From Candidatus Omnitrophota bacterium (GTDB taxonomy: Bacteria > Omnitrophota > Gorgyraeia > B26-G9), in the NCBI GenBank assembly GCA_022013205.1, contig JAKLQT010000223.1, positions 1 to 39,885 of the forward strand: a stretch of DNA of 39,885 nucleotides, written 5' to 3'. Positions 21,199 through 39,885 of this stretch are shown in pieces. Below the pieces are notes generated by a model. The model searched no databases. It saw nothing but the letters and a program-made list of their open reading frames with translations, and was not told where the DNA came from. Each line of letters opens with the position of its first letter. Position 1 is the first letter of the stretch. A program made the position numbers and the translations under genes.

Positions 21199-21228
21199 TA
21201 TTATCTTTCTAAAAAAATATTCGAAATT

Positions 21229-23515: not shown

Positions 23516-23932
23516 TTAAAATTTTTTAGCTTTTTCTTTTTCTATGAAAATTTCAAAACTAAAATTACCATATTTTAAAATCACTTTATCTTTTTTTATC
23601 TCTTCAACCTTTAAATCTTTCCAGGTATCTCCTTTTTGAACAAGTTCAGTATTTATAATCGCGATTGAATCTTCCTTTTTCCAGATAATCCCATTTAATT
23701 TCACGGAATAAGGCAATTTTAATACATCAAAAGATTCTTCCGCTATTTTTCCCTGCTCATTTAACGCGACAAAGGGATCCCTTTCTTCTTCCGTGAATGA
23801 TAACTCGATAGTATTATTCATTATAAGGCAAATTACCGGCAAAAACAATAAAAAACAGGCTTTTTTAACCGTTCCTAACCTGCTAAATTCATGCCGTGCT
23901 GGGATATTAACAATAAATTCATTAAACTTCAT
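23516..23932 (-). CDS. PilP-like / GspC-HR-like pilus assembly protein
   Basis: 138 aa with an N-terminal TM segment and a C-terminal beta-domain pattern (LNGIIWKKEDSIAIINTELVQKGDTW...VEEIKKDKVILKY). It sits between pilO and pilQ. Confidence 0.55.
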   Translation of the reverse strand: MKFNEFIVNIPARHEFSRLGTVKKACFLLFLPVICLIMNNTIELSFTEEERDPFVALNEQGKIAEESFDVLKLPYSVKLNGIIWKKEDSIAIINTELVQKGDTWKDLKVEEIKKDKVILKYGNFSFEIFIEKEKAKKF

Positions 23933-23975
23933 GCGAAAAGCATCCTTTTGTTTTTGATTTTTTAAACTTTATCAC

Positions 23976-24557: not shown

Positions 24558-24566
24558 ATCTTTTCT

Positions 24567-25193: not shown

Positions 25194-25245
25194 ATTTTTA
25201 ATTTCCTATTTATACACGCGTATTTCTTTTTCTATATAACAAGCC

Positions 25246-26007: not shown

Positions 26008-26014
26008 CTGTTTT

Positions 26015-26638
26015 TCAGTTTTCCAAATAAACCAAGGCTGTATTCGACAAACTTATATCATGCCTGTCCGGGCCCTGTTTTCGCGCCGTACTTGTAATTT
26101 TTATACTGCCGAAGGGAACAGCTGCATCCAGCATAGGATCCGCAAACTGCAAATCAATAACCCTATATGCTATCTGTTGTTCACTGCCTGCGGCCGGAGA
26201 AAACGCCGCGTCTAAAATATCCCGCAATAAAAATTCACCTGTGGCGTCTAACCGATACCTTATATAATAATCCGCCGTACCGTCTGCACCCCATATTACA
26301 TTATAACCATTATCTAATCCAATTGGTATCTGAAAATAAATAATATCTGAACCATTTATTCCCGCCCCGTCCTGAATAGTAGTTTTTAGCGCTAAATTCG
26401 ATTCTTTCAATTCATTCGATATTGAGGAGATTACCCTCTGATTTTGCCGGTATAAATCTATCTGTATTCGTATCAGCCCGTTATATATATCATTTGTTCT
26501 TAACGCCGAATAAGCTATCCCCATAATAATAGAAAATATACCAAGCGCGACCATCATTTCGGCCAGGGTAAACCCGGTTCTTACTTTTATAAACCGATGC
26601 TTACGGATAACTGAAATCAATTGAAACTGGTCTCCCAT
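26015..26638 (-). CDS. Prepilin-type N-terminal cleavage/methylation domain protein (minor pseudopilin)
   Basis: 207 aa with a leader MGDQFQLISVIRKHRFIKVRTG, then FTLAEMMVALGIFSIIMGIAY (class III signal with Glu at +5). Confidence 0.8.
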   Translation of the reverse strand: MGDQFQLISVIRKHRFIKVRTGFTLAEMMVALGIFSIIMGIAYSALRTNDIYNGLIRIQIDLYRQNQRVISSISNELKESNLALKTTIQDGAGINGSDIIYFQIPIGLDNGYNVIWGADGTADYYIRYRLDATGEFLLRDILDAAFSPAAGSEQQIAYRVIDLQFADPMLDAAVPFGSIKITSTARKQGPDRHDISLSNTALVYLEN

Positions 26639-26691: not shown

Positions 26692-28158
26692 TTACGGCCC
26701 GCCCAAATATATTTTTCCCAGTTTATCTTTATCCGTAATAAGCTCCAAAAACTTAACCGGCGAATCTATTTCTCCATTACTATTTATATCTTCTCCGGCA
26801 TCAAGGGCACCATTAAAATTCGTATCCTCACCGATAATTCGGCCGCTCTTATCCTGCCAGCAAAAACTAATTACTGCCTCTAAGAGCCGATTATAACCCG
26901 CGCAGGACCAAACATCGTTGCTTATACCCACCCCATCAATATTCCCTCCCATTACCCACAATATATTATTATAAACTAAAGCGAGAAAACTTTGTCTTGG
27001 CCCCCAGGAAGCAGCAGCTGCTGCTTCAGTCCAATATACTCCATCAGTAGAATACCATACATCATCCTTAAACGGGCCAGAACTTGTTCCTCCGATCACC
27101 CACATTTTATTATCATAAACCACTGCTTCATGACTCATTCTTTGATCCCACCCGGCACTTGCCGTTGCCTGCGTCCAGGTTATGCCGTCAGAAGAATACC
27201 AAACGTCATTTGTTCCGCCAAAAAAATTACCTCCAAGATGCCACATCTTATTATTATAAACCAAAGAAGCATGTAAATTTCTTTGTCCCCAGGCAGCTGC
27301 TGCTGTCGCTTGAGTCCATGTAATTCCATCCGAAGAATACCACACATCACTAAAGATTCCCGCGGAATTGCCTCCCAACACCCACATTTTATCATCATAG
27401 GCCAAAGCGGTATGAGCGCTTCTTGCCGGCCAGGCCGCCGCTGCTGTTGCCATTACCCAGTTTACCCCATCCGTAGAATACCAGACATCATTTAAAAAAA
27501 TAGAGGCAGCATTTACCCCCCCCATCACCCACATCTTATTGTCATAAACTAAGCAGGTAAACCCTGCTCTTTTCTGCCAATTCGCTGAAGGTGTTGCTTG
27601 CAGCCAGGTTATACCGTCAGAGGAATACCACACATCTCCCTTTACCGTAGGGATAGGCCCTGAACTGCCTCCCATTATCCACATCTTATTATCGTAAACC
27701 ACACCCCCGAAATTAATTCTTTCTACCCAGGACGGATCAGCAATAACCAAATTTTCCCCGCCTCCATAAAGTGCGGGCCTATCAATTAATTCTATATTTC
27801 CCTTGCCGGTTAAGCCTGTAATATCAAAGGTATTTCCCGGGGTTCCGCCAGAGACATAATCAACCATTATTTTGTCAAAATCATGCGCTTTAATCTGTTC
27901 TAATATGTTTTTTACCTCGTTAGCGGCAAGATGAGTATCCCGGCTTTGCTCGCTCAAATTAAGCGTTTTATTAAAAGTGCTTAAAAAAGCGGCTAAAACA
28001 GATATTAATATCGCGCTGGATACCAAAAGTTCAATAAGGGTGAAACCTCTCCTTATTTTTATAACCTGATACGCGCGGATATCTGAAATAATTTGAAACT
28101 TGTTAAAATTTGTTAAAATTTGTTGTTTGAAATTCGATGAAAATTTATTGAGATTCAT
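26692..28158 (-). CDS. Pseudopilin fused to a six-blade Kelch-like beta-propeller and two EF-hand-like loops
   Basis: I use the ATG at 28158; the track start at 28212 is TTG. The leader MNLNKFSSNFKQQILTNFNKFQIISDIRAYQVIKIRRG is followed by FTLIELLVSSAIL. Six repeats follow of the form YDNKMW.(M/L)GG....DVWYS.DG..W...a..A.W..R, then DTNFNGALD and DINSNGEID. Confidence 0.8.
   Translation of the reverse strand: MNLNKFSSNFKQQILTNFNKFQIISDIRAYQVIKIRRGFTLIELLVSSAILISVLAAFLSTFNKTLNLSEQSRDTHLAANEVKNILEQIKAHDFDKIMVDYVSGGTPGNTFDITGLTGKGNIELIDRPALYGGGENLVIADPSWVERINFGGVVYDNKMWIMGGSSGPIPTVKGDVWYSSDGITWLQATPSANWQKRAGFTCLVYDNKMWVMGGVNAASIFLNDVWYSTDGVNWVMATAAAAWPARSAHTALAYDDKMWVLGGNSAGIFSDVWYSSDGITWTQATAAAAWGQRNLHASLVYNNKMWHLGGNFFGGTNDVWYSSDGITWTQATASAGWDQRMSHEAVVYDNKMWVIGGTSSGPFKDDVWYSTDGVYWTEAAAAASWGPRQSFLALVYNNILWVMGGNIDGVGISNDVWSCAGYNRLLEAVISFCWQDKSGRIIGEDTNFNGALDAGEDINSNGEIDSPVKFLELITDKDKLGKIYLGGP
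26902..27720. repeat. Six tandem about 145-bp coding repeats (Kelch-like blades)
   Basis: Repeated DNA and peptide units are visible, e.g. gatgtgtggtattc... coding DVWYSSDGITW four or more times. This periodicity explains the antisense shadow ORFs at 26992-27495. Confidence 0.85.
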
Positions 28159-28187
28159 GAAATTTATTGTCCTTTGCGTTATAATCC

Positions 28188-28210
28188 TTTTTATTCTCAC
28201 ACAAAGCCGC
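28188..28210. repeat. Copy B of the 23-bp exact repeat, left arm of an imperfect inverted repeat spanning the pilC-pseudopilin spacer
   Basis: Identical to 11373-11395. In addition, attctcacacaaagcc (28193-28208) matches the reverse complement of gtctttgtgtgattat (28365-28380) at 13 of 16 positions. Confidence 0.75.
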
Positions 28211-28438
28211 AAAGATCACAGAGTTTTTATTCAACATCTTTGTTTACCCAGATAGAGAACGGTTACCTGAGACAACCGTCAAAGTCTTAAGATGAATTAT
28301 CTCTAATGAGGTTTATAATGCTTAAATCCTGCCTTTTGTTTTCTGCCCTTCTTTGTGCCTTGGTGTCTTTGTGTGATTATTTTATTTATTTTTCTATTTC
28401 AACCAATTTCCATAAATTTCAATGCGTTTCTAATATTA

Positions 28439-29638
28439 TCAGCCTCCTATAATTTCTGTCATCTTCAATATCGGCAAAAACATGGCCACAACGATTCCTC
28501 CGACAACTAAGCCGAGGAAAATTATAATAAACGGCTCGATTAAAGACATCATATTATTCACCGTCGCGTCTACCTGGTCTTCATAAAAAAAACCTATTTT
28601 AGTAAGCATAAGTTCCAATTCCCCGCTTTCCTCTCCTACCCCGATCATTTCCACAACCATTTGAGTGAAAACACCTTCTTTACTTAATTGCAAAGCGATT
28701 CTTTCTCCTTTGCTTACTTGATCTCTTACCCTAATAATTGCCGCCTCAATAACGCTATTGTCAACCGTAGAGGACACTATATCCAACGCGTTTAATATAG
28801 GTATGCCGCTTTTTAAAAGAGTCGCTAAGGTCTGGCTAAAACGCGCGATGATTAATTTTTGAAAAAGAGCTCCAAATACCGGCAATTTTAATTTAAAAGC
28901 ATCAAAATTTATTCTCCCCTTTGGAGTTCTAATATAATTACCGATTCCCGCCAAAGCAAGCCCTATCCCGATAATAACTACTAATACATATTTTCGCATT
29001 ACATTACTGAAATCGATCAAAAGCTGTGTAGGCAAGGGTAATCGCGTGTTTAAGGAATTAAAAATTTCCTCAAACCCGGGAATAACTTTAAAAATCAGAA
29101 ACGACACAATTATTACAGCTACGATAATAATTGCCGCCGGATAAACTAATGCTGATTTTACACGATTGACAATCTTATTATTCTTTTCTATATAACTCGC
29201 CAGGCGCTCAAGGATTTCATTCAAAGCGCCGCTTGTTTCCCCGGCGTTGACCATACGCGTATACAGCGAAGCAAAAACACGCGGATAATTCCCCAGGGCG
29301 TCTGAAAGGCTGCTGCCTGATTCGATCAAATTACGAATATCAACAGATATTTCACGCATTTCCCCGTTTTTAAACTGTCCGGATAAAATAGTCAACCCTT
29401 TTGTTAAAGGAATACCCGCTCCTACCAAAGTAGAAAGCTGGCGGAAAAACAAAGCTAGTTGCTCTTCATTAACTTTTTTAGCTTTAACCCCTCGCTTTGA
29501 GTCCCCTTTACCAACAGAGAGAACCACCAGATTTTGCTGCCGTAGAATAACCATCGCTTCCTGAGCGTCCTTGGCAATAATGCTTCCGGTTTTGCCCTTT
29601 CCTGATACTTCTTTAGCTTTATAACTAAATGTAGGCAT
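28439..29638 (-). CDS. pilC: Type IV pilus / T2SS inner-membrane platform protein PilC/GspF
   Basis: 399 aa with the duplicated GspF domain architecture and three TM segments (motifs LSTLVGAGIPL / LATLLKSGIPIL). Confidence 0.9.
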   Translation of the reverse strand: MPTFSYKAKEVSGKGKTGSIIAKDAQEAMVILRQQNLVVLSVGKGDSKRGVKAKKVNEEQLALFFRQLSTLVGAGIPLTKGLTILSGQFKNGEMREISVDIRNLIESGSSLSDALGNYPRVFASLYTRMVNAGETSGALNEILERLASYIEKNNKIVNRVKSALVYPAAIIIVAVIIVSFLIFKVIPGFEEIFNSLNTRLPLPTQLLIDFSNVMRKYVLVVIIGIGLALAGIGNYIRTPKGRINFDAFKLKLPVFGALFQKLIIARFSQTLATLLKSGIPILNALDIVSSTVDNSVIEAAIIRVRDQVSKGERIALQLSKEGVFTQMVVEMIGVGEESGELELMLTKIGFFYEDQVDATVNNMMSLIEPFIIIFLGLVVGGIVVAMFLPILKMTEIIGG

Positions 29639-29639
29639 T

Positions 29640-31460
29640 TTAGTTGTCCGCGTATCCTGTCTCTACCCAGGCTGTACCATTCCAAATTAACATTAAAATA
29701 TCGTTTTGATATAAATCTAAAGGATTAGTATGTAATCTTGTACTCGCATCCGTGCTCAGGCGAACCATAAAGGCTGTTGTGTTTTCAAGGATAAGAATAT
29801 CTCCCGCGGACTTGCCAGCAGCGATACCAGGACTGCCTAAACTAACATCTCCGAGAGGGGAAAGCCGGAGATAACTGGTCGGGCCATCAGGTGTTAAGGT
29901 ACTCCCATTTACCAGTCCCGTATAACCGCTTCCCGGCTCTAAGGTAATCCTGGTTTTGTCAGTATATTGGGTGTTAATGCCATTATCATAAACAGGCGCA
30001 GCATAAATAGAACCGCTAAAAGTCCCTGTTATCATATTGCCGTTTAGGTAGTTATCAGAACCGCTCCATAACCTGATTCCATTTTCAACAGCAGCTAAGG
30101 AATTCATAATGCGATTACTGGTAATAATATTTTTACTGCCAGTGATATATATATTGGATCTCTCCCCGCCGCTGCCGTTATTGTCAAAAATAATATTCCC
30201 AGCTATAACATTGGCATTACTGTCAGACAGTCTAATCCCCTTATAAGTATTATTTGCGATAGTGTTTCCTGAAATTAAATTATACCCATAAAGAAGTATT
30301 GTTTCACTGCAAAAAGTTTCATCTATCCAGCATCCTCTTTCTAACCCAATACCATTTCCGATATTTGAACTAATATAATTATTACAAACAACGTTAAAAA
30401 CGCTATAGTATAAGTTTATCCCATTCCCATTATTAGCCTGGATAATATTATTTAAAATAATATTATTCCTGGCTTGCTCGCCAGAACCATCTATATTAAT
30501 ACCGGTTCCCCCATTTTGAATAATATTATCCGAGATAGTGTTGTAATTAAAGCGAGCCGCGCAGCCCGCGGAGTTTGTTTTCGCATATATACCACCCTTA
30601 GAATTATCAGTTATAATATTGTTTGAAATAACCTGATAATATATATAATAATTTGAATAAGTATAAATGCCATAACCAGCATTATAACCTATATTGTTAT
30701 CGGTAATAATATTTCCATAACTGGGCCCGCTGCCGCTGTTAATAATAATACCGGTTCCGTTCATATCCTCAATCCACACATTATTAATCTTTGAATAATA
30801 AGCCGCATGCAGATGTATACCGTTATTATTTGTTCCTGTTTGACTGTTTCCATCAATCATAAGCTGCGAAATTAAAATCCCGTCTATTAAATACACATAA
30901 ATTGCGCTAACACTACTTGCTCCAGACGCAATCTTTAATACCGTTCCTTTTCCTGTTCCGATTATCGCCTTTCCAGAATCATCAGGCGCGGTACTATCCA
31001 GATTTATTGAAGCAGAGATATTATAGGTTCCTTCTAAAAGATACACTGCTCCTCCGTTTGTCCCTAAATCATCAATCGCGGCTTGAATCTCTACCTGGTC
31101 ATCTGTGCCGTCGCAGACATAGTCTGCCCTGGTTGTATCCACTGAATCTGACGCGGCAACGATTCTGGCTACTATCGCGGCATCATCGCCCCCTGCGCTT
31201 GAAAATTCCTGCCATGCTGTCCCATCATAATAATACGGTTTATCATCATTATCGTCATAATATACCTGCCCTTCCGCGGGAGATGACGGCGCTGGATCCT
31301 GCGGATTAAAAATCAATGTTTCACTTCGTACATCAGCCGGAACTTCAAGCCGGGCGAAAACCTGTCCACAGTCAAAAGTCAGAAGTCCATAGCTGACAGC
31401 TAATAGCCAAAAGAAAAGAGTTCTGAGTTTTGAGTGATGAGTTATAAGTTTTGAGTTCAT
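29640..31460 (-). CDS. Secreted right-handed parallel beta-helix protein, paralog P1 (pectate-lyase-3 / tailspike-like cap, conserved C-terminal domain)
   Basis: 606 aa with a Sec signal (LLAVSYGLLTFDCGQVFA), RADYVCDGTDDQVEIQAAIDDLGTNGGAVYLLEGTYNISASINLD, many NNII.DN-type rungs and a C-terminus ...LIWNGTAWVETGYADN. The stop is 1 nt from the pilC ATG. Confidence 0.8.
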   Translation of the reverse strand: MNSKLITHHSKLRTLFFWLLAVSYGLLTFDCGQVFARLEVPADVRSETLIFNPQDPAPSSPAEGQVYYDDNDDKPYYYDGTAWQEFSSAGGDDAAIVARIVAASDSVDTTRADYVCDGTDDQVEIQAAIDDLGTNGGAVYLLEGTYNISASINLDSTAPDDSGKAIIGTGKGTVLKIASGASSVSAIYVYLIDGILISQLMIDGNSQTGTNNNGIHLHAAYYSKINNVWIEDMNGTGIIINSGSGPSYGNIITDNNIGYNAGYGIYTYSNYYIYYQVISNNIITDNSKGGIYAKTNSAGCAARFNYNTISDNIIQNGGTGINIDGSGEQARNNIILNNIIQANNGNGINLYYSVFNVVCNNYISSNIGNGIGLERGCWIDETFCSETILLYGYNLISGNTIANNTYKGIRLSDSNANVIAGNIIFDNNGSGGERSNIYITGSKNIITSNRIMNSLAAVENGIRLWSGSDNYLNGNMITGTFSGSIYAAPVYDNGINTQYTDKTRITLEPGSGYTGLVNGSTLTPDGPTSYLRLSPLGDVSLGSPGIAAGKSAGDILILENTTAFMVRLSTDASTRLHTNPLDLYQNDILMLIWNGTAWVETGYADN

Positions 31461-31541
31461 TTTTTACGGTCTCTATCCTCTGGTTAAATTTCTATTACCA
31501 ATCCTGGCATTTTCCGTTTTTTTGTTTCTCTGCCTTTTTAG

Positions 31542-31601
31542 CTAGTTGTCAACATACTTCATCTCCAGCCACTTAGAGCCGTTCCGGATTAACTCCTTCG
31601 T
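31542..31601 (-). pseudogene. Relic 3' end of a fourth beta-helix paralog
   Basis: Between in-frame stops, the minus strand encodes TKELIRNGSKWLEMKYVDN-stop. This parallels the paralog C-termini (KLIWNGTRWLEMKWTDN-stop in P2), and the DNA aligns with 32261-32315. Confidence 0.6.
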
Positions 31602-31611
31602 CTAATTTGAT

Positions 31612-31956
31612 TTACTTGTAATCACTAATCCAGATTAACCGGCCTTTTACCTTTTCTAAAGAAGCGGCTGCTAAAAATTTAAGCAGCCGTCTTAAAAGTA
31701 AAGAAAAAGAAGTCTGGTTGCTTAATATTATTCCAAAATGCGCGCCCTTCAATTTTTTATGCAGCTTAGCAAAATCTTTTATATTATGAGTTAGAATCGC
31801 CCTCTTTTCTTTTATGGCCATCCTTAATTGCGCTTCATCAGATAAACCAAAGAGCCTTTTTTCAATACAACTCATTACATCATAACCCCTGATTCTTAAG
31901 ACTTCAGCTAATAAAGGCCTTATGTCTTCATCTAGATAAATTTTTACTTTTTCCAT
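31612..31956 (-). CDS. DUF5615-family (PIN-like) putative toxin
   Basis: 114 aa, starting MEKVKIYLDEDIRPLLAEVLRIRGYDV... It overlaps the upstream DUF433 gene by 13 nt, a typical TA arrangement. Confidence 0.65.
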   Translation of the reverse strand: MEKVKIYLDEDIRPLLAEVLRIRGYDVMSCIEKRLFGLSDEAQLRMAIKEKRAILTHNIKDFAKLHKKLKGAHFGIILSNQTSFSLLLRRLLKFLAAASLEKVKGRLIWISDYK

Positions 31957-32210
31957 ATTTCCTCTTTTTGTTTTTCAAGTAAAGCCTCGATTTCTTCTTT
32001 ATGGTCATAATAATAAGAAAGGGCATCGTAAATAGCTGCTAAAGAAAGTTGAGGAAACTCTTTAACCAATTCTTCCGGCAGCATTCCTTCTTTAATTATG
32101 TAAAATACGATTGACCTTGCCGGAAAACGTGTACCCTTAATAATCGGCTCTCCTCCTTGAATTTTAATATCATGGGTTATATAGCAATGATTCATAAAAG
32201 TCTTGGCCAT
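31944..32210 (-). CDS. DUF433-family putative antitoxin
   Basis: 88 aa. The segment IQGGEPIIKGTRFPARSIVFYIIKEGMLPEELVKEFPQLSLAAIYDALSYY matches the DUF433 pattern from memory. RBS is GGAGG. Confidence 0.7.
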   Translation of the reverse strand: MAKTFMNHCYITHDIKIQGGEPIIKGTRFPARSIVFYIIKEGMLPEELVKEFPQLSLAAIYDALSYYYDHKEEIEALLEKQKEEIWKK

Positions 32211-32260
32211 TTATTTTACCTCCATTTTTCTTAATCTCCACCAATTTCAATGAATTTCTA

Positions 32261-34054
32261 TTAATTATCCGTCCACTTCATCTCCAGCCATCTGGTTCCG
32301 TTCCAGATTAATTTCAGCATATCATTTTCCCCTAAGCAGCGGCTTGCGCCTAAGCTCACATTTGCGCCATCAGGAACAGTCACGGTATTGGTATTATCAG
32401 TCCCCTCCAAAATCAGGATATCACCGGCAGCCTTGCCATTAGCAATAGCTGTAACCGCGTTTAACGTTACCGCTGAAGCAGGGCTTAACGGTACATATCC
32501 CTTAGGATTTGTGCTTACATCTAAGGTGCTGCCCGCGGCAGGGATAACCGCTGTCTGCCGCTCTATAGTAATCTTTTCTTTCTGAGTGTATTTGGTATTG
32601 GTGCCGGAGTCGTTGATCCTTCTATCATAACCCGCGCCGATATTTCCCGCGCCGTCGATAAGGTTACCGATAAGATAGTTATTACCGCAGGTATTACTCC
32701 CTATATTTATCCCATAACCTGTTCCCGCGGAATCGAAGATTCTATTTGACGAGATAATATTATTATGCCCCCATAAGCTCCATACCCCGCTATAAATTCC
32801 ATCTTCGATGTTTTCGTAAATAATGTTCTGCGTAATTAAGTTAAAAGAACCGCTCATTAATATTCCCCGCCCACTATTAGAAACTACATTTTTAGAAATA
32901 ACACCACACTGAGTTCCACACAATACTCCGATACCGTTGGTATTATTAGAAACATTATTTCCAACCACAACACTATACCGGCAGTAACTAGCAAGATTAA
33001 TGCCAAAACTACTGTTAAAATTCACATTATTATCTATAATAATGTTGTTGTAATCATTTCCGCAGTAACCATCAAGGTTAATTCCGCTAGCTCCATTGGA
33101 ACAAATGCTGTTATTGGAAATTACATTATTTTTAAAACCTGCGCCGCCATAAGTATAAGTCTGTATCCCGCTGTAGCTATTATTACTTATAACATTCTGA
33201 GAGATAATATTGTTATCCACACTTGATCCGGTTACTCCTCCCCCGAATGTATTATAAATACCTCGCTTATTAAATTGGATATGATTATTAATAATTATAT
33301 TATATTTAGCACCTTGATTATATCCAATAGTAATACCAGTTCCACTCATATTTTCTATCCAAACACCAGCAATTTTTGAATAATCAGTTTTATTAAGCAG
33401 CAAACCTGTAACTTCACTCCCTAACTTAGAGTTTCCATCAATCATTAGGTTAGTAATTAAAATTTTATTCACATAATAAGTCTTAATAACACCCGTGGAA
33501 CCTATAGCCGCCGCTAATTTTAACACCGACCCTTTGCCTGTTCCAATTATTGATTTATTTGAATCATCTGGCGCAACATTATCCAGATTTATAGAGGCGC
33601 TTATATTAAAGGTTCCCTCCATTAGATACACTGCCCCGCCAACTGTCCCCAGATCATCAATCGCGGCTTGAATCTCTACCTGGTCATCCGTGCCGTCGCA
33701 GATATAGTCTGCTCTGGAAGTATCCAGGGAATTAGAAGCAGCAACAATCCTGCTCGCTGCTGTTTTCGGGCCGCTGCCTGCGCCAAATCCCTGCCAGGCG
33801 GTGCCGTCAAAATATTTCATGAGTTTTCCTGTAGAGTTATAAAACAGCTCTCCTTCTAAAGGCGCAGCCGGATAATCCGCCACGTCACCGGTAAAGGTTA
33901 TGGAATCCGCCTTTATATTTTCTTTTACAGTCAAATGGTCATCTGAGGCGAAAGCCGGCCCGCAGTTAACAGCTAATAGCCCATAGCTGATAGCCAATAG
34001 ACAAAAGAAAAAGATTCTGTGTATTGAATTCTGAGTTATAAGTTTTACGTTCAT
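32261..34054 (-). CDS. Secreted right-handed parallel beta-helix protein, paralog P2
   Basis: 597 aa with the same architecture as P1 and P3. Its ATG overlaps the TGA of the upstream nucleotidyltransferase gene (ATGA). Confidence 0.8.
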   Translation of the reverse strand: MNVKLITQNSIHRIFFFCLLAISYGLLAVNCGPAFASDDHLTVKENIKADSITFTGDVADYPAAPLEGELFYNSTGKLMKYFDGTAWQGFGAGSGPKTAASRIVAASNSLDTSRADYICDGTDDQVEIQAAIDDLGTVGGAVYLMEGTFNISASINLDNVAPDDSNKSIIGTGKGSVLKLAAAIGSTGVIKTYYVNKILITNLMIDGNSKLGSEVTGLLLNKTDYSKIAGVWIENMSGTGITIGYNQGAKYNIIINNHIQFNKRGIYNTFGGGVTGSSVDNNIISQNVISNNSYSGIQTYTYGGAGFKNNVISNNSICSNGASGINLDGYCGNDYNNIIIDNNVNFNSSFGINLASYCRYSVVVGNNVSNNTNGIGVLCGTQCGVISKNVVSNSGRGILMSGSFNLITQNIIYENIEDGIYSGVWSLWGHNNIISSNRIFDSAGTGYGINIGSNTCGNNYLIGNLIDGAGNIGAGYDRRINDSGTNTKYTQKEKITIERQTAVIPAAGSTLDVSTNPKGYVPLSPASAVTLNAVTAIANGKAAGDILILEGTDNTNTVTVPDGANVSLGASRCLGENDMLKLIWNGTRWLEMKWTDN

Positions 34055-34683
34055 TTTAGGTTATTACCCGCTATTCTTTTAATTTCGCTTTCAAAAAATC
34101 TCTTTACTTCTTCCCATTCGCAGGGCTTAAGCATCTTAGGCATCGGGTCTTTTTCTGCATCCTCAAAATAGACCAAACTTTTCATAATATGTACAGAGGT
34201 AGTGGCTAGGTTTTTATATTTTTTATCATAAAGCCGAATAGCCTCATCCAATGATATGCCCTCCTGACAAATAAAATAAAAATCAATAAAGTCTCTCTTA
34301 ACGCCTCTAGACGCAATCGCGGCAATTTTCATCGCCGCGATATCGCGGATATCTATAATATTAACCTTTCCAAATTTTTTTGTAGAGTAAAGAAGAGGAT
34401 ATTCGTAATAAAATATACTAAAGCGCACGCCTTCAAAGTTACCTAAAATTGTTCTCCAGGCAATTCTCTCTAATTTGAATTTAGAAATTTCTTTAAGCTT
34501 TGGGAGAAGGTTAGTTTCATTAAATTCATCGGTGGTAAAAAAATCTAAGTCATAAGATATGCGGTGCCCGAGTTGTAAGGCTAAGGCAGTTCCGCCTGCT
34601 AAATAGGCCTTTTGGATAATCTCGCTTCTCTCTAATAAGGCCAAAATTGCTTTTGTATTTCCTGGAAGGACATGTTTAAACAT
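34051..34683 (-). CDS. AbiEii/AbiGii-type nucleotidyltransferase toxin family protein (DUF1814-like)
   Basis: 210 aa with the YLAGGTALALQLGHRISYDLDFFT motif typical of this NTase family. Confidence 0.7.
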   Translation of the reverse strand: MFKHVLPGNTKAILALLERSEIIQKAYLAGGTALALQLGHRISYDLDFFTTDEFNETNLLPKLKEISKFKLERIAWRTILGNFEGVRFSIFYYEYPLLYSTKKFGKVNIIDIRDIAAMKIAAIASRGVKRDFIDFYFICQEGISLDEAIRLYDKKYKNLATTSVHIMKSLVYFEDAEKDPMPKMLKPCEWEEVKRFFESEIKRIAGNNLK

Positions 34684-34934
34684 TTTACCTCTTCTTTCTT
34701 ACAATTTAAAATAAGCGCCCAGAAATTAGCGCTCTTTCCAGACAATCCCCTGCTTTTTTGTAAAGCGTAAATAATTTGGGAGCGTGAGAAATTCCTCAAC
34801 ATCCAATTAATAGCCCGTTTATCGCCATATTCAAAAATACGTTCGATAGTATATCGGGGATAATTTTCATAATCCAATGCTTCAAAGTCTATATCCCAAA
34901 AATACTCCTTTAAAAATTTAGGCGGTTTTTTCAT
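34632..34934 (-). CDS. Small partner protein of the NTase (putative antitoxin; resembles the DUF6922-type family from memory)
   Basis: 100 aa, including FWDIDFEALDYENYPRYTIERIFEYGDKRAINWMLRNF...SGKSANFWALIL. It overlaps the NTase gene by 52 nt. Confidence 0.55.
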   Translation of the reverse strand: MKKPPKFLKEYFWDIDFEALDYENYPRYTIERIFEYGDKRAINWMLRNFSRSQIIYALQKSRGLSGKSANFWALILNCKKEEVKCLNMSFQEIQKQFWPY

Positions 34935-35046
34935 TTTTTACAATCTCTATCCTCCGGTTAAATTCCTTTAACAGTCCTGTCATTTTTAGTTTTTTCGTCC
35001 CTTAAACCTTACTTTTGACTTGCTTGTGCCCTTAAGGGTATTACTT

Positions 35047-36828
35047 TTAATTATCCGCCCAATCCGTCTCCAGCCAGTCTGTCCCGTTCCACAATAAAGT
35101 CAAGATATCATCCAATCCCAAAACCCGCGAAGCCGCGCCGTATAATATTGTATTCGCAGCATGAGGAATTGTAACAGTATTCGTATCTGACGTTCCCTCT
35201 AATATAAGACTGTCTCCTATTGCCTTGCCGTCGGCAATAGCTGTAACCGCGTTTAACGTTACAGCTGAAGCAGGGCTTAACGGCACATATCCCTTAGGAT
35301 TTGTGCTTACATCAAGAGTACTGCCTGCAGCCGGCGCAACCGCTGCCTGCCGCTCAATAGTAATCCTGGTTTTGTCCGTGTATTTAGTGTTGGTACCTAA
35401 ATCCTTTATAGAGTTGGTAATAAAATTCCCCATAAGATAGTTATTCTCACATAGATTACTACTGATATTTATATCTGCTAGACTAGGAGATGTGAGATTA
35501 ATAATCCGATTAGAATGTATAATATTATTATCCGAATTAGTGCCTTCTAAAGCTATCTTTGAACGCGCCTCATTTATCCCATAAAAAAGATTCCCAAAAA
35601 TATTATTATCAGAAGAGTTGCGAATGGTAAAAGCTTCTACACTCCATCCAACCTGAAAATTATTGCCTGAGATAATATTAGAAGAACCACCATCGATAAG
35701 AGTAACCCAGCAAAGCCAGCCCCCTCCTGAAGTTACTTTCACAGTATTAGCTGAGAATATATTATAGGAGGAAGAGGAAAGGTGAAAAGGATTATATGGT
35801 GCTTCAATATAATTACCAGAGAAAATATTATTATCAGAAGAGTTAATATTTAAATTCGCCCATTGAACACCTGACTGAATAATATTATTATAGGTGATGG
35901 TATTGTTATCGGAAGATGATAGATATATAGAAAAAACTCCTCCTTGAATAGAGTTGCCGTTGATAATATTATTATTGGAAGAAGAAAGATTTATACTGCC
36001 CCACCTCGCTGAATTCAGATGAGTATTAGAAATAATATTGTTAGAAGAAGAGGAAAAAATAATCCCGCTTCCACTACCCAAACCTCCTTCAAATTTCTCT
36101 ACCCAGACTTCATCTATTTTTGAGTATGTAACAGAATTAAAATAAATACCTCCTTTTCCAATTGTATTTCCGTCAAGCATCAACTGAGAAATAAAGATTC
36201 TATTTACACTTACGGCATTAATCACATACACATTGCTTACACCTGAGGCCAATTTTAATACAGTCCCCGCGCCTGTTCCAATTATCGCTTTTCCCGAATC
36301 ATCCGGGGCAATATTATCCAGATTTATAGAAGCAGAGATATTATATGTCCCTTCCAAAAGATACACTGCCCCGCCGCTTGCCCCCAGATCATCAATCGCG
36401 GCTTGAATCTCTACCTGGTCATCCGTTCCGTCACAGGTATAGTCGGCTCTTGGGTTAACCCCTGCCGCGGTATCTATTGAATTGGATGCCGCCACGATTT
36501 TTGAGGCTATGGTTTTATCCGTGCCTGAGCCTGTGCCGAATCCCTGCCAGGTGCTTCCGTCGTAATATTTCACACTGTTTTCTGAGTCATCATAATACAT
36601 CTGGCCTTTCGCAGGCGCGCCGGGTGAGGCTGACTGGGGATTAAACACAAACCCGGAACGGTTATCCGCGGCAGTGCTGTTTATTTCAATGCTGCCGTTA
36701 ACCTCAAGTTTTTCCTGGGCGAAAATTAGTCCGCAGTCAATAGACAATAGCCCATAGCTAATAGCTAATAGCCCGCAGGTTAAAATCGTTCTTGTATAAA
36801 TGATTTTAAAAAACATCTTTCTTCTCAT
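35047..36828 (-). CDS. Secreted right-handed parallel beta-helix protein, paralog P3
   Basis: 593 aa with the same architecture. The middle is rich in SSS.NNI(I/F)S.N rungs, and the C-terminal 100 aa are nearly identical to P2. Confidence 0.8.
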   Translation of the reverse strand: MRRKMFFKIIYTRTILTCGLLAISYGLLSIDCGLIFAQEKLEVNGSIEINSTAADNRSGFVFNPQSASPGAPAKGQMYYDDSENSVKYYDGSTWQGFGTGSGTDKTIASKIVAASNSIDTAAGVNPRADYTCDGTDDQVEIQAAIDDLGASGGAVYLLEGTYNISASINLDNIAPDDSGKAIIGTGAGTVLKLASGVSNVYVINAVSVNRIFISQLMLDGNTIGKGGIYFNSVTYSKIDEVWVEKFEGGLGSGSGIIFSSSSNNIISNTHLNSARWGSINLSSSNNNIINGNSIQGGVFSIYLSSSDNNTITYNNIIQSGVQWANLNINSSDNNIFSGNYIEAPYNPFHLSSSSYNIFSANTVKVTSGGGWLCWVTLIDGGSSNIISGNNFQVGWSVEAFTIRNSSDNNIFGNLFYGINEARSKIALEGTNSDNNIIHSNRIINLTSPSLADINISSNLCENNYLMGNFITNSIKDLGTNTKYTDKTRITIERQAAVAPAAGSTLDVSTNPKGYVPLSPASAVTLNAVTAIADGKAIGDSLILEGTSDTNTVTIPHAANTILYGAASRVLGLDDILTLLWNGTDWLETDWADN

Positions 36829-36981: not shown

Positions 36982-38652
36982 TCAAAACTCCGCTGTTGCC
37001 CGGATAACCTCTTCTAATGACGTAATTCCGGAAAGAGCTTTTTTAAACGCGTCTTCCCTCAAGCTCTCCATTCCCTGCGAGGTTAAATAGCGTTTAATCT
37101 CAACATCTGAAACTCTGTTTAAAATCATCTGCTTTATCTCATCATCAACAATAAACGCTTCAATAACCGCTATCCTTCCTTTGTATCCGCTTTTACTGCA
37201 TTTATCGCAGCCAACTGATTTATATAAGGCTACTTTTTCCGATTGCACATCAATAAAAAATTTTTTAAGTTCCGTCTTTTCTATTTCATATTCCTGTTTG
37301 CAATCCGGGCATAAACATCGGCATAATCTTTGAGCGGCAACCATAATCACGGAAGAAGCGACCAGAAATGGTTCAACCGCCATATCAACAAGCCTTGTAA
37401 TAGCGCTGGGAGCGTCATTAGTATGAAGAGTGCTCAAAACCAGATGCCCGGTTAATGCCGCTTTCATGGCAATATCCGCGGTCTCCAAGTCTCTTATCTC
37501 CCCGACCATCAGGATATCCGGGCTTTGACGCAGAACAGACCTCAAACACTGGGCAAATCCCAGGCCGATTTCTGGTTTGGTCTGAATCTGAGTTATTCCT
37601 CTAAGATGATATTCAATAGGATTTTCTATGGTTACAATACTTTTCTCCATCACGTTAAAACGGCTTAAAATCGCGTAGAGTGTGGTTGATTTTCCGCTGC
37701 CCGTGGGGCCGGTGATTAGGATTGCCCCATAGGGGATATTTATAGCTTTTGCTAATGTATTCAGCGATTTTCCCGAAAAACCAAGTTTTTCTAATTCAAA
37801 TTTTAGATTCCCCTTATCTAAAATACGAATAACAATCTTCTCTCCAAAATTAATCGGTAAAATTGAAACACGAAAATCCACATCCCGGCTTTTGAACTTC
37901 AGCCCAAAACGGCCGTCCTGCGGCAGCCTTCGCTGTGTAATATCTAAACGCGACATAATTTTAAACCGGGCGGTAAGGGCATCCTGAATATCTTTAGAAA
38001 AAGACTTTATATCGTGTAAAACTCCATCAATACGATATCTCAATCTTATATTATTTTCATAAGGCTCTATATGGATATCACTCGCCATACATTCTAAAGC
38101 TTCATTCAAAATAGAATTCGCGGCATTAACAATAGTTGTATCTTTACTGAGTTCCGCTACTTTTCTAATATTAAATTCTTCTGCCTTGGTTATTGACTCA
38201 AGCTCAATTTCCGGGATTAGCTCCTTATCAAAATCCATAGATTTACCAGACAAGCTATAATATAAATCAACCGCGTTAGTTATTTCCGCCGCGGAGCTGA
38301 TCACCGGATGTATTTCATAATCACTCAAAATTATGGCTAAATTATCTAACGTCAATACGTCAAGCGGATCAGCCATCGCAATGGTAAGCATCTGTCCAAT
38401 TTTGGAAATAGGGATAAGCTGATAGTTACGGCAATTTTTTTCCGTAATAAGCGCGATGACATCTTCAGGAATTTTATAATTAGATATTGTAATAAAAGGT
38501 TTCCCCAGCTTGAGGGAAAAATCAGCAACCTGTTCTATATCACCGCGCGAATAATTTTCCTCAAATAATTCCAGCGCGGAAGACTGCTCATCAGCAGCAG
38601 ACGCAGGATCAGCCTCTTCAGAATTTTCCTTTTGTCTTTCCTCAAAAACCAT
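36982..38652 (-). CDS. pilB: Type IV pilus / T2SS assembly ATPase PilB/GspE
   Basis: 556 aa with a GspE-N domain, Walker A GPTGSGKST, Asp box, Walker B, His box and a tetracysteine motif (CPDC...CDKC). Confidence 0.9.
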   Translation of the reverse strand: MVFEERQKENSEEADPASAADEQSSALELFEENYSRGDIEQVADFSLKLGKPFITISNYKIPEDVIALITEKNCRNYQLIPISKIGQMLTIAMADPLDVLTLDNLAIILSDYEIHPVISSAAEITNAVDLYYSLSGKSMDFDKELIPEIELESITKAEEFNIRKVAELSKDTTIVNAANSILNEALECMASDIHIEPYENNIRLRYRIDGVLHDIKSFSKDIQDALTARFKIMSRLDITQRRLPQDGRFGLKFKSRDVDFRVSILPINFGEKIVIRILDKGNLKFELEKLGFSGKSLNTLAKAINIPYGAILITGPTGSGKSTTLYAILSRFNVMEKSIVTIENPIEYHLRGITQIQTKPEIGLGFAQCLRSVLRQSPDILMVGEIRDLETADIAMKAALTGHLVLSTLHTNDAPSAITRLVDMAVEPFLVASSVIMVAAQRLCRCLCPDCKQEYEIEKTELKKFFIDVQSEKVALYKSVGCDKCSKSGYKGRIAVIEAFIVDDEIKQMILNRVSDVEIKRYLTSQGMESLREDAFKKALSGITSLEEVIRATAEF

Positions 38653-38744: not shown

Positions 38745-39885
38745 TTATTTTTCATCAGAAACCGTGCATCTTAAAACCTCTTCCAGAGATGTAATACCCC
38801 TTAGCATTAAATCCAAGCCTCCCTGCCTTAAAGTGACCATCCCTTCCTGCCTGGCCTGTTTCCTTATCAGGATTTCCTGCTGCCCCTGCTCTATTAATTT
38901 TTTAATTTCACGGCTAATCGGCAAAACTTCAATTATTGCCGTTCTTCCATAGTAACCTGTATTTAAACAAAACCCGCAGCCTTTGCTTTTATAAATATAC
39001 CCCGCGCCTTCAAATTCAGAGGCATTAATCCTATATTTTTCTATTTCCATGTTAATCGACGCGGGGATCAAATACCGCTCCTTACACTTCAGGCAAAGTT
39101 TCCTGACCAAAATCTGCGAAGATACAATAAGACAGGCGGAGGCAATCAAAAAGGATTCAATCCCCATATTTATCAAACGAATAATCGCGCCGCTTGCTGT
39201 TGCCGTATGAAGAGTACACAAAACCAGATGGCCGGTAAGCGCGCTTCTAACAGCCATTTGAGCGGGTTTAAAATCCCTAATTTCTCCCACTAGAATGATA
39301 TTCGGATCCTGTCTTAAGATAGATCTTAAAGCTACATCAAAAGTTAACCCAATATTTTCATCTACCGCGACCTGATTAATCCCATGCAGCTGATATTCGA
39401 TAGGATCCTCGACCGTAGTAATATTTTCTTCTATAGAATCCATATATTTAAGGATGGCGTACAAAGTCGTTGTTTTTCCGCTTCCTGTAGGCCCGGAAGC
39501 CACGATCATACCGTAAGGCTTATGTGTAGCCGCCTTTAATAATTCTACAGACCTTGAGTCTAAACCAAATTTATCTATATCCAAATTTACTCTTTCTTTA
39601 TCAAGTATCCGCAAAACAATCCTTTCTCCTGCCCTTGAAGGCATTGTTGAGATACGGAAATCAACCTCTTTCCCCGGCACCTTTATTTTAAATCTTCCAT
39701 CCTGGGGAAAACGATGTTCTGAAATATCAAGATCACTAATAACCTTAAGCCGGCTGATAATCCCGCTATGAAACGATATAGAAAAATTTTCAAATTTCTG
39801 TAAAACCCCATCAATACGAAACCGCACCTGGATTGAATCCTCTAAAGGCTCGATAAAAACATCACTCGCTCGATTTTCTATTGAC
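38745..39885 (-). CDS. Second PilB/GspE-class ATPase, 5'-partial (continues beyond the window end)
   Basis: The reading frame stays open to position 39885 (...SIENRASDVFIEPLEDSIQVRFRIDG). It has Walker A GPTGSGKTT and a tetracysteine motif (CLKC...CGFC), so it is PilB/GspE class rather than PilT class. Confidence 0.85.
   Translation of the reverse strand, partial: SIENRASDVFIEPLEDSIQVRFRIDGVLQKFENFSISFHSGIISRLKVISDLDISEHRFPQDGRFKIKVPGKEVDFRISTMPSRAGERIVLRILDKERVNLDIDKFGLDSRSVELLKAATHKPYGMIVASGPTGSGKTTTLYAILKYMDSIEENITTVEDPIEYQLHGINQVAVDENIGLTFDVALRSILRQDPNIILVGEIRDFKPAQMAVRSALTGHLVLCTLHTATASGAIIRLINMGIESFLIASACLIVSSQILVRKLCLKCKERYLIPASINMEIEKYRINASEFEGAGYIYKSKGCGFCLNTGYYGRTAIIEVLPISREIKKLIEQGQQEILIRKQARQEGMVTLRQGGLDLMLRGITSLEEVLRCTVSDEK

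What the first reader, a model, noticed from the sequence alone, without database searches (positions are those of the whole stretch)
29640..36828. Three paralogous secreted beta-helix proteins embedded between the pilus ATPase and platform genes
Three 593-606 aa paralogs (P3, P2, P1) lie between pilB (36982..38652) and pilC (28439..29638), a junction that is normally tight in T4P/T2SS operons. They share five modules. (1) A Sec-type signal. (2) A P..G..YYD......YYDG..WQ.F motif. (3) A near-invariant RADY.CDGTDDQVEIQAAIDDLG..GGAVYL.EGT.NISASINLD..APDDS block, like the cap of pectate-lyase-3/tailspike folds. (4) A strongly diverged run of N/S/G-rich NNII..N rungs, read as a right-handed parallel beta-helix. 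(5) A shared about 110-aa C-terminal domain ending L.WNGT.W.E....DN. The P1 stop is 1 nt from the pilC ATG (TAAAATG), so P1 is almost certainly co-expressed with the machine. I infer dedicated cargo of a T2SS-like secretion mode, or pilus-associated depolymerase/adhesin variants whose variable helix sets target specificity. Pectate-lyase-fold enzymes are classic T2SS substrates. I know of no described pilus operon with such an internal array.
Basis: partly seen in the sequence, partly recalled or inferred. Interest (0 to 1): 0.82.

Follow-up and report, generated by a model that had tools for sequence, protein, structure and literature searches.

The report
Tailspike-like protein array inside pilus operon
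Three fast-evolving, phage-tailspike-like sugar-binding proteins are built into the operon of a pilus/secretion machine in an Omnitrophota bacterium, and the same arrangement recurs across that phylum, so they are probably exported by the machine and set which host surfaces these tiny, probably parasitic bacteria attack.

Summary
Three paralogs (P1 29640-31460, P2 32261-34054, P3 35047-36828, minus strand, 45-46% identical) lie between a PilB/GspE ATPase and PilC/GspF. Each has a Sec-type signal, a small YYD...YYDG..W domain, a capped right-handed beta-helix (Pfam Beta_helix/NosD; AF2 pLDDT 87) and a Phage_depo_C beta-sandwich. The closest structures are AlgE4/AlgE6, alginate and VPS lyases, and phage tailspikes/depolymerases.

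About 22 of 24 informative Omnitrophota loci carry 2-6 tandem copies inside the same machine cluster. The array sits in at least four different positions. A second, canonical T4aP locus type in the phylum has none. Between close genomes the machine is 85-97% identical, while the central helix rungs of orthologs drop to 14-30%; N and C ends stay at 70-88%.

Best reading: Sec-exported, machine-dependent glycan-binding/depolymerising proteins whose swappable helix body sets target range. Export, enzymatic activity and pilus docking are all inferred. No family-wide catalytic residues were found.

I found no description of this in the literature searched. It is a new variant of known kinds (operon-encoded T4P/T2SS cargo; multi-tailspike arrays).

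The parts
35047..36828 (-). P3: 593-aa signal peptide + YYD domain + capped beta-helix + Phage_depo_C domain
   Evidence: Pfam NosD 1.4e-9, Phage_depo_C 5.2e-9, Beta_helix 1e-7.
34632..34934 (-). DUF6922 small protein, putative antitoxin partner of AbiEii. It uses a leader homologous to the P1 leader.
   Evidence: PF21956, 9.2e-15. Leader repeat D9. Sequences.
34051..34683 (-). AbiEii-type nucleotidyltransferase toxin. Its stop overlaps the P2 start (ATGA).
   Evidence: PF08843, 2.5e-16; PADLOC AbiEii.
32261..34054 (-). P2: 597-aa paralog with the same architecture
31944..32210 (-). DUF433 protein, putative antitoxin
   Evidence: PF04255, 2.5e-15.
31612..31956 (-). DUF5615 / Mut7-C PIN-like protein, putative toxin
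   Evidence: PF18480, 7.6e-15.
31556..31608 (-). Decayed copy of a paralog 3' end. With a frameshift it reads LIRNGSKWLEMKYVDN*. It is followed by an inter-paralog spacer and leader.
   Evidence: D7, 75% to the P2 3' end. Sequence.
29640..31460 (-). P1: 606-aa paralog. Its stop is 1 nt before the pilC ATG.
   Evidence: AF2 model pLDDT 87.2.
36982..38652 (-). PilB/GspE-type assembly ATPase with an N-terminal MshEN domain
   Evidence: PilB and GspE models score almost equally, both below cut-off.
38745..39827 (-). Second GspE/PilB-type ATPase (not PilT-like). The upstream part of the locus is cut off by the window end.
   Evidence: The ortholog in L002 is typed. It has a tetracysteine motif.
28439..29638 (-). 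PilC/GspF platform protein
26692..28212 (-). Pilin with a class III signal (G|FTLIE), a long alpha1 helix and a six-blade Kelch propeller head. It is a conserved partner of the array-bearing locus type.
   Evidence: AF2 pLDDT 85. Conserved synteny.
20176..26638 (-). Rest of the machine: minor pilin (26015-26638), conserved 253-aa protein (25246-26007), PilN with an INLLP motif (24567-25193), PilO/GspM-like (23976-24557), T2SSB-domain protein (23516-23932), short secretin (21959-23440), TPR protein (21229-21921), PilM (20176-21198)

Best explanation
P1-P3 are exported, tailspike-like glycan-recognising proteins, probably depolymerases. They belong functionally to the type IV filament machine whose operon they sit in.

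Proposed mechanism, step by step:
1. They are co-transcribed with pilB...pilM (inferred from spacing).
2. They cross the inner membrane by Sec and are cleaved after (Y/F)(A/S/G)|Q (inferred from sequence).
3. They fold into a small N-terminal beta domain, a capped ~11-12-rung right-handed beta-helix and a C-terminal beta-sandwich (predicted, high confidence).
4. They are then pushed through the secretin, or carried out on the filament that bears the Kelch-propeller pilin, powered by the two GspE/PilB-type ATPases (inferred from conserved gene linkage only).
5. Outside the cell, the central helix rungs bind and probably cut surface polysaccharide of the host or prey cell.

The conserved N and C modules would serve folding, docking and export. 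The replaceable central rungs would set target specificity, and several paralogs per cell would broaden the range, as in multi-tailspike phages.

The interspersed TA pairs are secondary selfish insertions riding in the operon.
For: Fold and family:
- Pfam Beta_helix, NosD and Phage_depo_C hit all three paralogs.
- A profile search of PDB sequences gives AlgE6 2.6e-22, AlgE4, NosD, AlgG, alpha-1,3-glucanases and tailspikes.
- The AF2 model has pLDDT 87.2.
- Foldseek against PDB: AlgE4/6, alginate epimerase/lyase, the VPS lyase RbmB, and the Det7 and CBA120 tailspikes.
- Foldseek against BFVD: a Rhodococcus phage tail fibre at 6e-19 over the full length, plus EPS depolymerases and tailspikes.

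Export: Sec-type signals are conserved in about 75 homologs.

Linkage:
- The P1-pilC gap is 1 nt and AbiEii/P2 overlap as ATGA.
- Arrays of 2-6 copies lie inside the same cluster in about 22 of 24 informative loci.
- The array occupies four different slots: pilB|P|pilC, pilC|P|Kelch pilin, pseudopilins|P|PilN-O, and divergent next to PilO.
- Linkage that survives repeated rearrangement argues for function rather than accident.

Specificity to one machine type: four canonical T4aP loci of Omnitrophota (PilT x2, PilSR, small pilins) have a tight pilB-pilC junction and no beta-helix genes.

Variation pattern:
- L005 vs L010: machine 85-97% identical, P orthologs 50-63%. Along each ortholog the N part is 80-88%, the C part 70-86% and the central rungs 14-30%.
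- L009 vs L039 shows the same trend.
- Within the window, the cap is under purifying selection (dN/dS 0.13-0.23 at dS~1), not recent gene conversion.

Precedents: TcpF and CofJ are secreted proteins encoded in T4bP operons and hooked to the tip minor pilin (PMC9565799, PMC10120004, PMC6048534). Predatory Myxococcus uses interchangeable pilus tips (PMC12075869). Omnitrophota are inferred predators or parasites with expressed type IV pili (PMC10066038).
Against: - No experimental or transcript data were available.
- No family-wide conserved acidic or basic residues occur in the central rungs; only an N/G/I/S ladder is conserved.
- The AlgE YG(F/I)DPH catalytic motif is absent. Catalysis is therefore unproven, and the proteins could be purely adhesive.
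- The best PDB relatives include periplasmic proteins (AlgG, NosD).
- The machine cannot be typed as T2SS or T4aP, and no small major pilin, PilD or PilT lies in the cluster.
- Most array-bearing loci were found by searching with the P family itself. Only one (L070) came from a blind pilC sample.
- Two loci show copies without visible pilus genes (L004, L008), though both are cut by contig ends.
- A trimeric tailspike might be too wide for a secretin pore (own knowledge, not tested).
Confidence: 0.55

Rival explanations
1. Non-catalytic adhesins. The beta-helices are receptor-binding modules displayed on the cell surface or pilus and mediate attachment only, with no polysaccharide cleavage.
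For: - No conserved catalytic residues in the central rungs.
- The AlgE motif is absent.
- The beta-helix adhesin PfbA is among the PDB matches.
- A hypervariable centre is typical of receptor-binding proteins.
- The locus has a PilMNOPQ architecture.
Against: - The Phage_depo_C domain and the best structural neighbours are enzymes or depolymerising tailspikes.
- Catalytic residues of tailspikes are family-specific and would not show up as family-wide invariants.
Confidence: 0.2
2. Periplasmic accessory or self-polysaccharide-modifying proteins. AlgG/AlgE/NosD-like beta-helix proteins would stay in the periplasm and remodel the cell's own envelope or exopolysaccharide, or scaffold the machine.
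For: - Top sequence and structure matches are AlgE4/6, AlgG and NosD.
- A Sec signal proves export only to the periplasm.
- The genes are operon members.
Against: - Copy number varies from 2 to 6.
- Central rungs diverge to 14-30% identity between genomes whose machine is ~90% identical. That is unlike a structural or housekeeping periplasmic component.
- The AlgE catalytic motif is missing.
- There is no nos or alginate gene context.
Confidence: 0.12
3. Hitch-hiking variable island. The array, like the TA pairs, is cargo of a recombination or insertion hotspot and is functionally unrelated to the pilus machine. It could be phage-derived.
For: - TA modules and Avd-like PF05635 genes recur in the same slots.
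- A decayed paralog end shows turnover.
- The architecture is tailspike-like.
- L004 has a Y1 transposase next to a copy.
Against: - No phage genes are nearby, and the IMG/VR scan found no relative.
- The proteins carry Sec signals, which virion proteins lack.
- The array follows this one machine type through four different slots and an inversion, yet is absent from the canonical T4aP locus.
- There is translational coupling to pilC.
Confidence: 0.08

Closest known systems
TcpF (Vibrio cholerae TCP) and CofJ (ETEC CFA/III): secreted proteins encoded inside type IVb pilus operons
   Same: - A non-pilin, Sec-exported protein is encoded among the ATPase, platform and pilin genes of a type IV filament operon.
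- Export depends on the pilus machine.
- A conserved N-terminal segment docks on a large tip minor pilin (PMC9565799, PMC10120004, PMC6048534).
- Here a large-headed (Kelch) pilin is the conserved neighbour.
   Different: - No sequence or fold relation to TcpF or CofJ.
- Here the machine is PilMNOPQ-type, not T4bP.
- The cargo is a tandem array of 2-6 hypervariable beta-helix paralogs rather than one gene.
- Docking and secretion are untested.
Phage tailspike / capsule depolymerase sets (e.g. CBA120 TSP1-4, Det7 gp208, Klebsiella phage depolymerases)
   Same: - Same architecture: small N-terminal module, right-handed beta-helix, C-terminal beta-sandwich (PF25692).
- Full-length Foldseek matches.
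- Several paralogs per genome, with conserved ends and a swapped receptor-binding body.
   Different: - Chromosomal and cellular, with Sec signal peptides.
- No virion or baseplate genes, and no relatives found in IMG/VR.
- Both ends are conserved, rather than the N terminus only.
T2SS-secreted pectate lyases and other beta-helix exoenzymes (Dickeya/Pectobacterium Out system); T2SS operons with an embedded substrate gene (E. coli SslE/YghJ, Klebsiella PulA)
   Same: - Sec-exported, folded beta-helix polysaccharide enzymes leave through a secretin driven by a GspE/F-type motor.
- Substrate genes can sit in the machine operon (PMC3707838; the rest is own knowledge).
   Different: - The machine here has PilM/PilN/PilO and a short secretin, and cannot be typed as T2SS.
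- No Pel-family catalytic signature.
- Arrayed, hypervariable paralogs are not a feature of the described T2SS operons that I know of.
AlgE4/AlgE6 mannuronan C5-epimerase A-modules, AlgG, alginate epimerase/lyase, RbmB
   Same: - Best sequence-profile and structural matches, starting at the ..DD..IQAAID....GG.VYL..G.Y cap motif.
   Different: - The catalytic YG(F/I)DPH(D/E) segment aligns to non-conserved residues (NGTGIIINSG in P1).
- No R-modules and no alginate genes.
- Extra N- and C-terminal domains.
Myxococcus xanthus Kil Tad pilus with interchangeable minor-pilin tips
   Same: - A predatory bacterium equips a type IV filament with several alternative variable modules that determine which prey are recognised (PMC12075869).
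   Different: - There the variable modules are minor-pilin complexes of a Tad pilus.
- Here they are non-pilin, Sec-exported beta-helix proteins in a PilMNOPQ-type locus.

Membership tests
Pectin-lyase-like right-handed parallel beta-helix superfamily (Pfam Beta_helix PF13229 / NosD PF05048 / Pect-lyase_RHGA_epim PF12708) | Profile matches to beta-helix repeat models above the curated cut-off | tested here: met
   PF13229 scores 70.8, 49.7 and 32.2 bits (cut-off 25.9). PF05048 scores 57.7, 52.6 and 38.1 bits (cut-off 23.6) in P1, P2 and P3.
Pectin-lyase-like right-handed parallel beta-helix superfamily (Pfam Beta_helix PF13229 / NosD PF05048 / Pect-lyase_RHGA_epim PF12708) | Three-dimensional fold: stacked three-strand rungs with an N-terminal capping helix | tested here: met
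   AF2 pLDDT 87.2 with a cap helix at 122-131 and regular short strands over 137-480. Foldseek probability 1.00 to AlgE4/6, tailspikes and GH28-type enzymes.
AlgE-type mannuronan C5-epimerase / alginate lyase | Catalytic YG(F/I)DPH(D/E) motif (Tyr, Asp, His) on the rung after the VEVREMSG segment | tested here: not met
   In the HMMER alignment, GYGFDPHEQ aligns to non-conserved positions of the profile. P1 reads NGTGIIINSG there. There is no conserved D/H.
AlgE-type mannuronan C5-epimerase / alginate lyase | Alginate biosynthesis context or RTX-type R-modules | tested here: not met
   No such domains in P1-P3 and no alginate genes in the window.
Phage tailspike / capsule depolymerase | Beta-helix followed by the C-terminal beta-sandwich domain PF25692 | tested here: met
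   PF25692 scores 36.9 bits (P3), 32.6 (P2) and 25.0 (P1, at the cut-off of 25). Full-length BFVD matches.
Phage tailspike / capsule depolymerase | Encoded in a phage or prophage and attached to a virion | tested here: not met
   The neighbours are pilus and TA genes only. No relative was confirmed in IMG/VR. Sec signal peptides are present.
Phage tailspike / capsule depolymerase | Homotrimer with an inter- or intra-subunit catalytic groove | not testable with these tools
   Only monomer prediction was available.
Type II secretion substrate | N-terminal Sec or Tat signal peptide, folding in the periplasm | tested here: met
   By inspection only, since no signal-peptide predictor was at hand. 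There are n/h/c regions and a conserved (Y/F)(A/S/G)|Q site in the three paralogs and the homologs. AF2 predicts helix 10-26 followed by a disordered linker.
Type II secretion substrate | Secretion depends on the GspD/E/F machine | not testable with these tools
   Only conserved gene linkage is shown.
T4P-dependent secreted proteins (TcpF/CofJ type) | Gene embedded in the pilus operon | tested here: met
   Conserved in relatives.
T4P-dependent secreted proteins (TcpF/CofJ type) | Homology to TcpF/CofJ and a type IVb machine | tested here: not met
   No such Pfam or NCBIfam hits. The machine has PilM/N/O/secretin of the T4aP/T2SS kind.
T4P-dependent secreted proteins (TcpF/CofJ type) | Flexible mature N terminus that binds the trimeric tip minor pilin | not testable with these tools
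   Residues 29-47 are low-confidence or disordered in the model, and the mature N terminus L.V.G / LTVP is conserved. No complex prediction was possible.
NosD (nitrous oxide reductase maturation) | nosZ/nosF/nosY operon context | tested here: not met
   No nos genes in the window or the related loci. The NosD Pfam hit reflects the shared repeat only.

The most novel reading that the evidence does not exclude
Omnitrophota carry a dedicated type IV filament machine that works as a cellular counterpart of a phage baseplate. Its Kelch-propeller pilin, or pseudopilus tip, would dock and present or eject a swappable set of trimeric tailspike-like depolymerases through their conserved N-terminal hook. 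This would give these ultra-small predators or parasites phage-style, cassette-exchangeable host-range determinants. The hypervariable central rungs would be exchanged by recombination between paralogs and between genomes.
Probability: 0.3. Interest if true: 0.85.

Novelty: new variant of a known kind. Interest (0 to 1): 0.7.

Why it matters
Omnitrophota are abundant, uncultured nanobacteria thought to live as predators or parasites. How they recognise and breach host cells is unknown. Published work has focused on their type IV pili, Tad systems and giant proteins.

A conserved, rapidly diversifying set of tailspike-like proteins wired into one specific pilus/secretion machine gives concrete candidates for host-range determinants. 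It also provides a natural test case for two open questions: how type IV filament machines select non-pilin cargo, and whether cells use phage-like modular receptor-binding enzymes.

The proteins are small enough (about 600 aa) to express and to screen against polysaccharides and candidate hosts.

Tried and rejected
- The promoter/terminator consensus scan of 28000-39885 gave nothing interpretable. There were 65 promoter-like sites against 37.5 expected, scattered inside genes, and no convincing intergenic terminator on the minus strand.
- The N-terminal YYD domain matches no Pfam family even at E<=1. It gives only weak PHROG hits to 8309 and 20787.
- PADLOC finds nothing for P1 or for the DUF433/DUF5615 pair.
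- The Kelch-pilin homolog search was swamped by generic Kelch proteins and gave no taxonomy.
- The IMG/VR scan found no relatives, so a prophage origin was rejected.
- Diversity-generating retroelement idea: Avd-like PF05635 genes lie in the same slots in L005 and L070. However, no reverse transcriptase was seen in any locus table, no template/variable repeat pair was found in the window, and the window has no PF05635 gene. Rejected for the window and not pursued elsewhere.
- Lipoprotein idea: Cys31 lies in a T/A/S-x-D/N-C-G context. The Cys is not conserved (often Tyr) and the context is not a lipobox. Rejected.
- Recent gene conversion as the cause of the near-invariant cap was rejected, because dS is about 1 there.
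- Rfam finds only three tRNAs, far from the locus.
- The profile search of 1.84 billion representatives is dominated by giant multi-helix proteins and gives no context.

Full report
**What is there**

All large ORFs of the 39.9-kb window are on the minus strand. The window has ~40% GC. From 39827 down to 20176 they form one co-directional cluster:
- a GspE/PilB-type ATPase, with the locus cut upstream by the window end;
- a PilB/GspE ATPase with an MshEN domain;
- P3;
- DUF6922 and AbiEii;
- P2;
- DUF433 and DUF5615;
- P1;
- PilC/GspF;
- a pilin with a Kelch propeller;
- a minor pilin;
- a conserved 253-aa protein;
- PilN (INLLP motif), PilO, a T2SSB-domain protein, a short secretin, a TPR protein and PilM.

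Housekeeping genes follow: a carA fragment, carB, a GAF-ANTAR regulator, uppP, glgC, a Na/Pi transporter, mgtE and three tRNAs.

The leader upstream of P1 is repeated upstream of DUF6922 (D9), and the AbiEii stop overlaps the P2 ATG. So that TA pair slipped between P2 and its original leader and now rides in the operon. P1 and pilC are separated by one base.

**What the proteins are**

Each paralog hits Beta_helix, NosD and Phage_depo_C in Pfam.

A 78-sequence family profile matches AlgE6 and AlgE4 A-modules (E 2.6e-22 and 1.3e-20). The match begins at the ..DD..IQAAID...GG.VYL..G.Y cap. Further matches are NosD, AlgG, alpha-1,3-glucanases and tailspikes.

The AlphaFold2 model of P1 has pLDDT 87.2 and pTM 0.77. 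It shows:
- a signal helix (10-26);
- a disordered linker;
- a small beta domain carrying the YYD...YYDG..W motif (52-102);
- a cap helix (122-131);
- about 11-12 helix rungs (137-480);
- a C-terminal beta-sandwich (530-604).

Foldseek confirms the fold against PDB: AlgE4/6, alginate epimerase/lyase, the Vibrio VPS lyase RbmB, and the Det7 and CBA120 tailspikes. Against viral models it gives full-length matches to tail fibres, tailspikes and EPS depolymerases, with a best E of 6e-19.

The N termini of the three paralogs and of about 75 homologs look like Sec signals, with a conserved (Y/F)(A/S/G)|Q site. The Cys the three share is not conserved in the family and is not in a lipobox.

Two limits apply. 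The AlgE catalytic YG(F/I)DPH segment is not conserved. Family-wide conserved polar residues lie only in the cap and first rungs and in the neck and C-domain; the central rungs keep only an N/G/I/S ladder. Catalysis is therefore plausible by family resemblance but not shown.

**Paralog history**

Synonymous sites are near saturation between all pairs (dS about 1 or more). The cap is under purifying selection (dN/dS 0.13-0.23). The near-invariant block is thus selected, not recently homogenised.

The genes are mosaics. P2 and P3 share the C-domain (76% aa), while P1 differs there (35-36%). P1 and P2 share the signal region (78% nt).

**Context elsewhere**

The closest homologs are named Omnitrophica/Omnitrophota, and all named pilC homologs are too. 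Some bins are labelled Planctomycetia or Elusimicrobia.

Gene tables and tblastn mapping of 70 fetched loci show 2-6 tandem family members inside the same machine cluster, in four arrangements:
- pilB|P...|pilC: the window, L002/L003/L022, L012 with four copies, L013, L023, L034, L065 with six copies, L070.
- pilC|P...|Kelch pilin: L001, L009, L036, L039, L044.
- Pseudopilins|P...|PilN-PilO-secretin: L005/L006, L010, L011/L032, L014, L025, L045.
- Divergent next to PilO...PilM: L015, L033.

Only L004 and L008 show copies without visible pilus genes, and both are cut at a contig end. By my count that is about 22 of 24 informative, dereplicated loci.

A neighbour-joining tree groups copies by slot and, within slots, by position. 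The multiplication is therefore old and the order is kept.

Distant relatives (~30%) occur as modules inside giant Saccharibacteria/CPR proteins, or next to CBM96 proteins, without pilus genes. The linkage is thus a property of the ~600-aa Omnitrophota family, not of the superfamily. No relative was found in IMG/VR.

**Reverse test**

I chose five pilC homologs on long contigs without regard to neighbours.
- Four belong to a different, canonical T4aP locus. It has two PilT-like ATPases, two PilB, PilC, small pilins and PilS/PilR. Its pilB-pilC junction is tight and it has no beta-helix genes.
- One is of the window type and has the array.

The arrays therefore mark one of at least two type IV filament systems in the phylum. 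That system has a Kelch-propeller pilin, two assembly-type ATPases, an MshEN/PilZ context, and no PilT in the cluster. NCBIfam cannot decide between T4aP and T2SS for its ATPase, platform and secretin; PilM and PilN are T4aP-like.

**Evolutionary tempo**

| Comparison | Machine proteins | P orthologs | Notes |
|---|---|---|---|
| L005 vs L010 | 85-97% | 50-63% | Kelch pilins 48-83% |
| L009 vs L039 | ATPases and PilC 88-90% | 46-57% | |

Along the L005/L010 orthologs, identity is 80-88% in the N part, 70-86% in the C part and 14-30% in the central rungs. That is the pattern of receptor-binding proteins with exchangeable bodies.

The AbiEii gene inside the arrays of L001 and L009 is 92% identical while pilC is 69%. 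This fits recent spread of the TA module.

**Interpretation**

The most economical reading is that these are Sec-exported proteins whose extracellular delivery or display depends on this machine, and that they recognise and probably degrade host-surface glycans. On this reading the conserved ends serve folding, docking and export, and the variable rungs set specificity.

| Status | Items |
|---|---|
| Shown | Anatomy, fold, conserved linkage through rearrangements, specificity to one machine type, the variation pattern |
| Inferred | Co-transcription, signal cleavage, route through the secretin or on the filament, oligomeric state, enzymatic activity, the target |

The rivals are pure adhesins, periplasmic accessory proteins, and a hitch-hiking island. 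They are weighed in their own section; none explains the linkage and the tempo together as well.

**Comparison with the known**

Operon-encoded cargo of type IV pili is known: TcpF and CofJ hook by their N termini to the tip minor pilin (PMC9565799, PMC10120004, PMC6048534). T2SS substrates encoded in the machine operon are known (SslE, PMC3707838). Beta-helix exoenzymes secreted by T2SS are known (own knowledge). Multi-tailspike phages are known. Interchangeable pilus tips in a predator are known (PMC12075869).

I found no description of a tandem, hypervariable tailspike-like array as a conserved component of a pilus/secretion operon. The Omnitrophota papers in the library discuss T4aP, Tad and T2SS-like loci and giant proteins, but not this. 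The library lacks most subscription journals, so absence there is not proof.

I rate it a new variant of known kinds, with interest 0.7.

Noticed in passing
window 34051-34934 and 31612-32210; L001 9060-9915; L009 ~12022-12645; L028 1039-1662; L065 7314-8194 and 19583-21192: Toxin-antitoxin modules (DUF6922/AbiEii, DUF433/DUF5615, DUF6036, HEPN/MNT) recur inside or beside the beta-helix arrays in several genomes. The AbiEii genes of L001 and L009 are 92% identical although pilC is only 69%. The arrays look like a preferred landing site for TA modules.
   Followed up: partly
window 31461-31608 and 34935-35046: The leader of P1 is duplicated in front of DUF6922. A frameshifted relic of a paralog 3' end (LIRNGSKWLEMKYVDN*) follows DUF5615. 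These are footprints showing how the TA pairs were inserted.
   Followed up: yes
L005 3354-3749; L070 5319-6209: Small PF05635 (23S rRNA intervening-sequence / Avd-like four-helix-bundle) genes sit in the same slots of the cluster. No reverse transcriptase was seen, so a DGR link is unsupported but was not excluded genome-wide.
   Followed up: partly
window 26692-28212; L002 14745-15977 vs L022 16487-17941: A pilin with a canonical G|FTLIE signal, a long alpha1 helix and a six-blade Kelch propeller head (AF2 pLDDT 85) is the conserved neighbour of the arrays. Its C-terminal segment is rich in D/N/G. It is the only gene that differs (91%, with an indel) between the otherwise identical loci L002 and L022. 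No paper in the library links Kelch repeats to prepilins.
   Followed up: partly
L066-L069 (pilC at 10001-11215): Omnitrophota carry a second, canonical T4aP locus: two PilT-like and two PilB ATPases, a response regulator, PilC, small pilins, 900-aa unknown proteins and PilS/PilR. It has no beta-helix genes. Published 'T4aP' counts for the phylum may merge two different machines.
   Followed up: partly
N termini of P1-P3 (window 31350-31460, 33945-34054, 36715-36828) and homologs P0002-P0082: The signal peptides share an unusually conserved end, L(L/W)T.D(Y/C)GL(L/V)Y(A/S/G)|Q. The hydrophobic segment is often tandemly duplicated (e.g. LVACGLWLVACGLLYAQ). This may be a dedicated sorting signal; it is unexplained.
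   Followed up: no
L016-L020 (e.g. L017 5915 onward, 3134 aa; L018, 3424 aa): The YYD motif + cap + helix module occurs, sometimes several times, inside giant 1100-3400-aa proteins of Saccharibacteria and other CPR bacteria. No homologs of the window's pilus genes lie nearby.
   Followed up: partly
L012 5549, L013 9197, L015 9998: Some family members carry the N-terminal YYD...YYDG..W module twice in tandem.
   Followed up: no
window 19731-20003: Only a 90-aa ORF with the N-terminal part of the CarA small-chain domain precedes carB (16453-19668). It may be a truncated or frameshifted carA.
   Followed up: no
window 36982-38652, 38745-39827; L002 4337-6504: The array-bearing machine has two assembly-type GspE/PilB ATPases. 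It also has a separately encoded MshEN domain protein and a PilZ protein upstream. Because MshEN and PilZ domains are known c-di-GMP receptors (own knowledge), this suggests c-di-GMP control.
   Followed up: no
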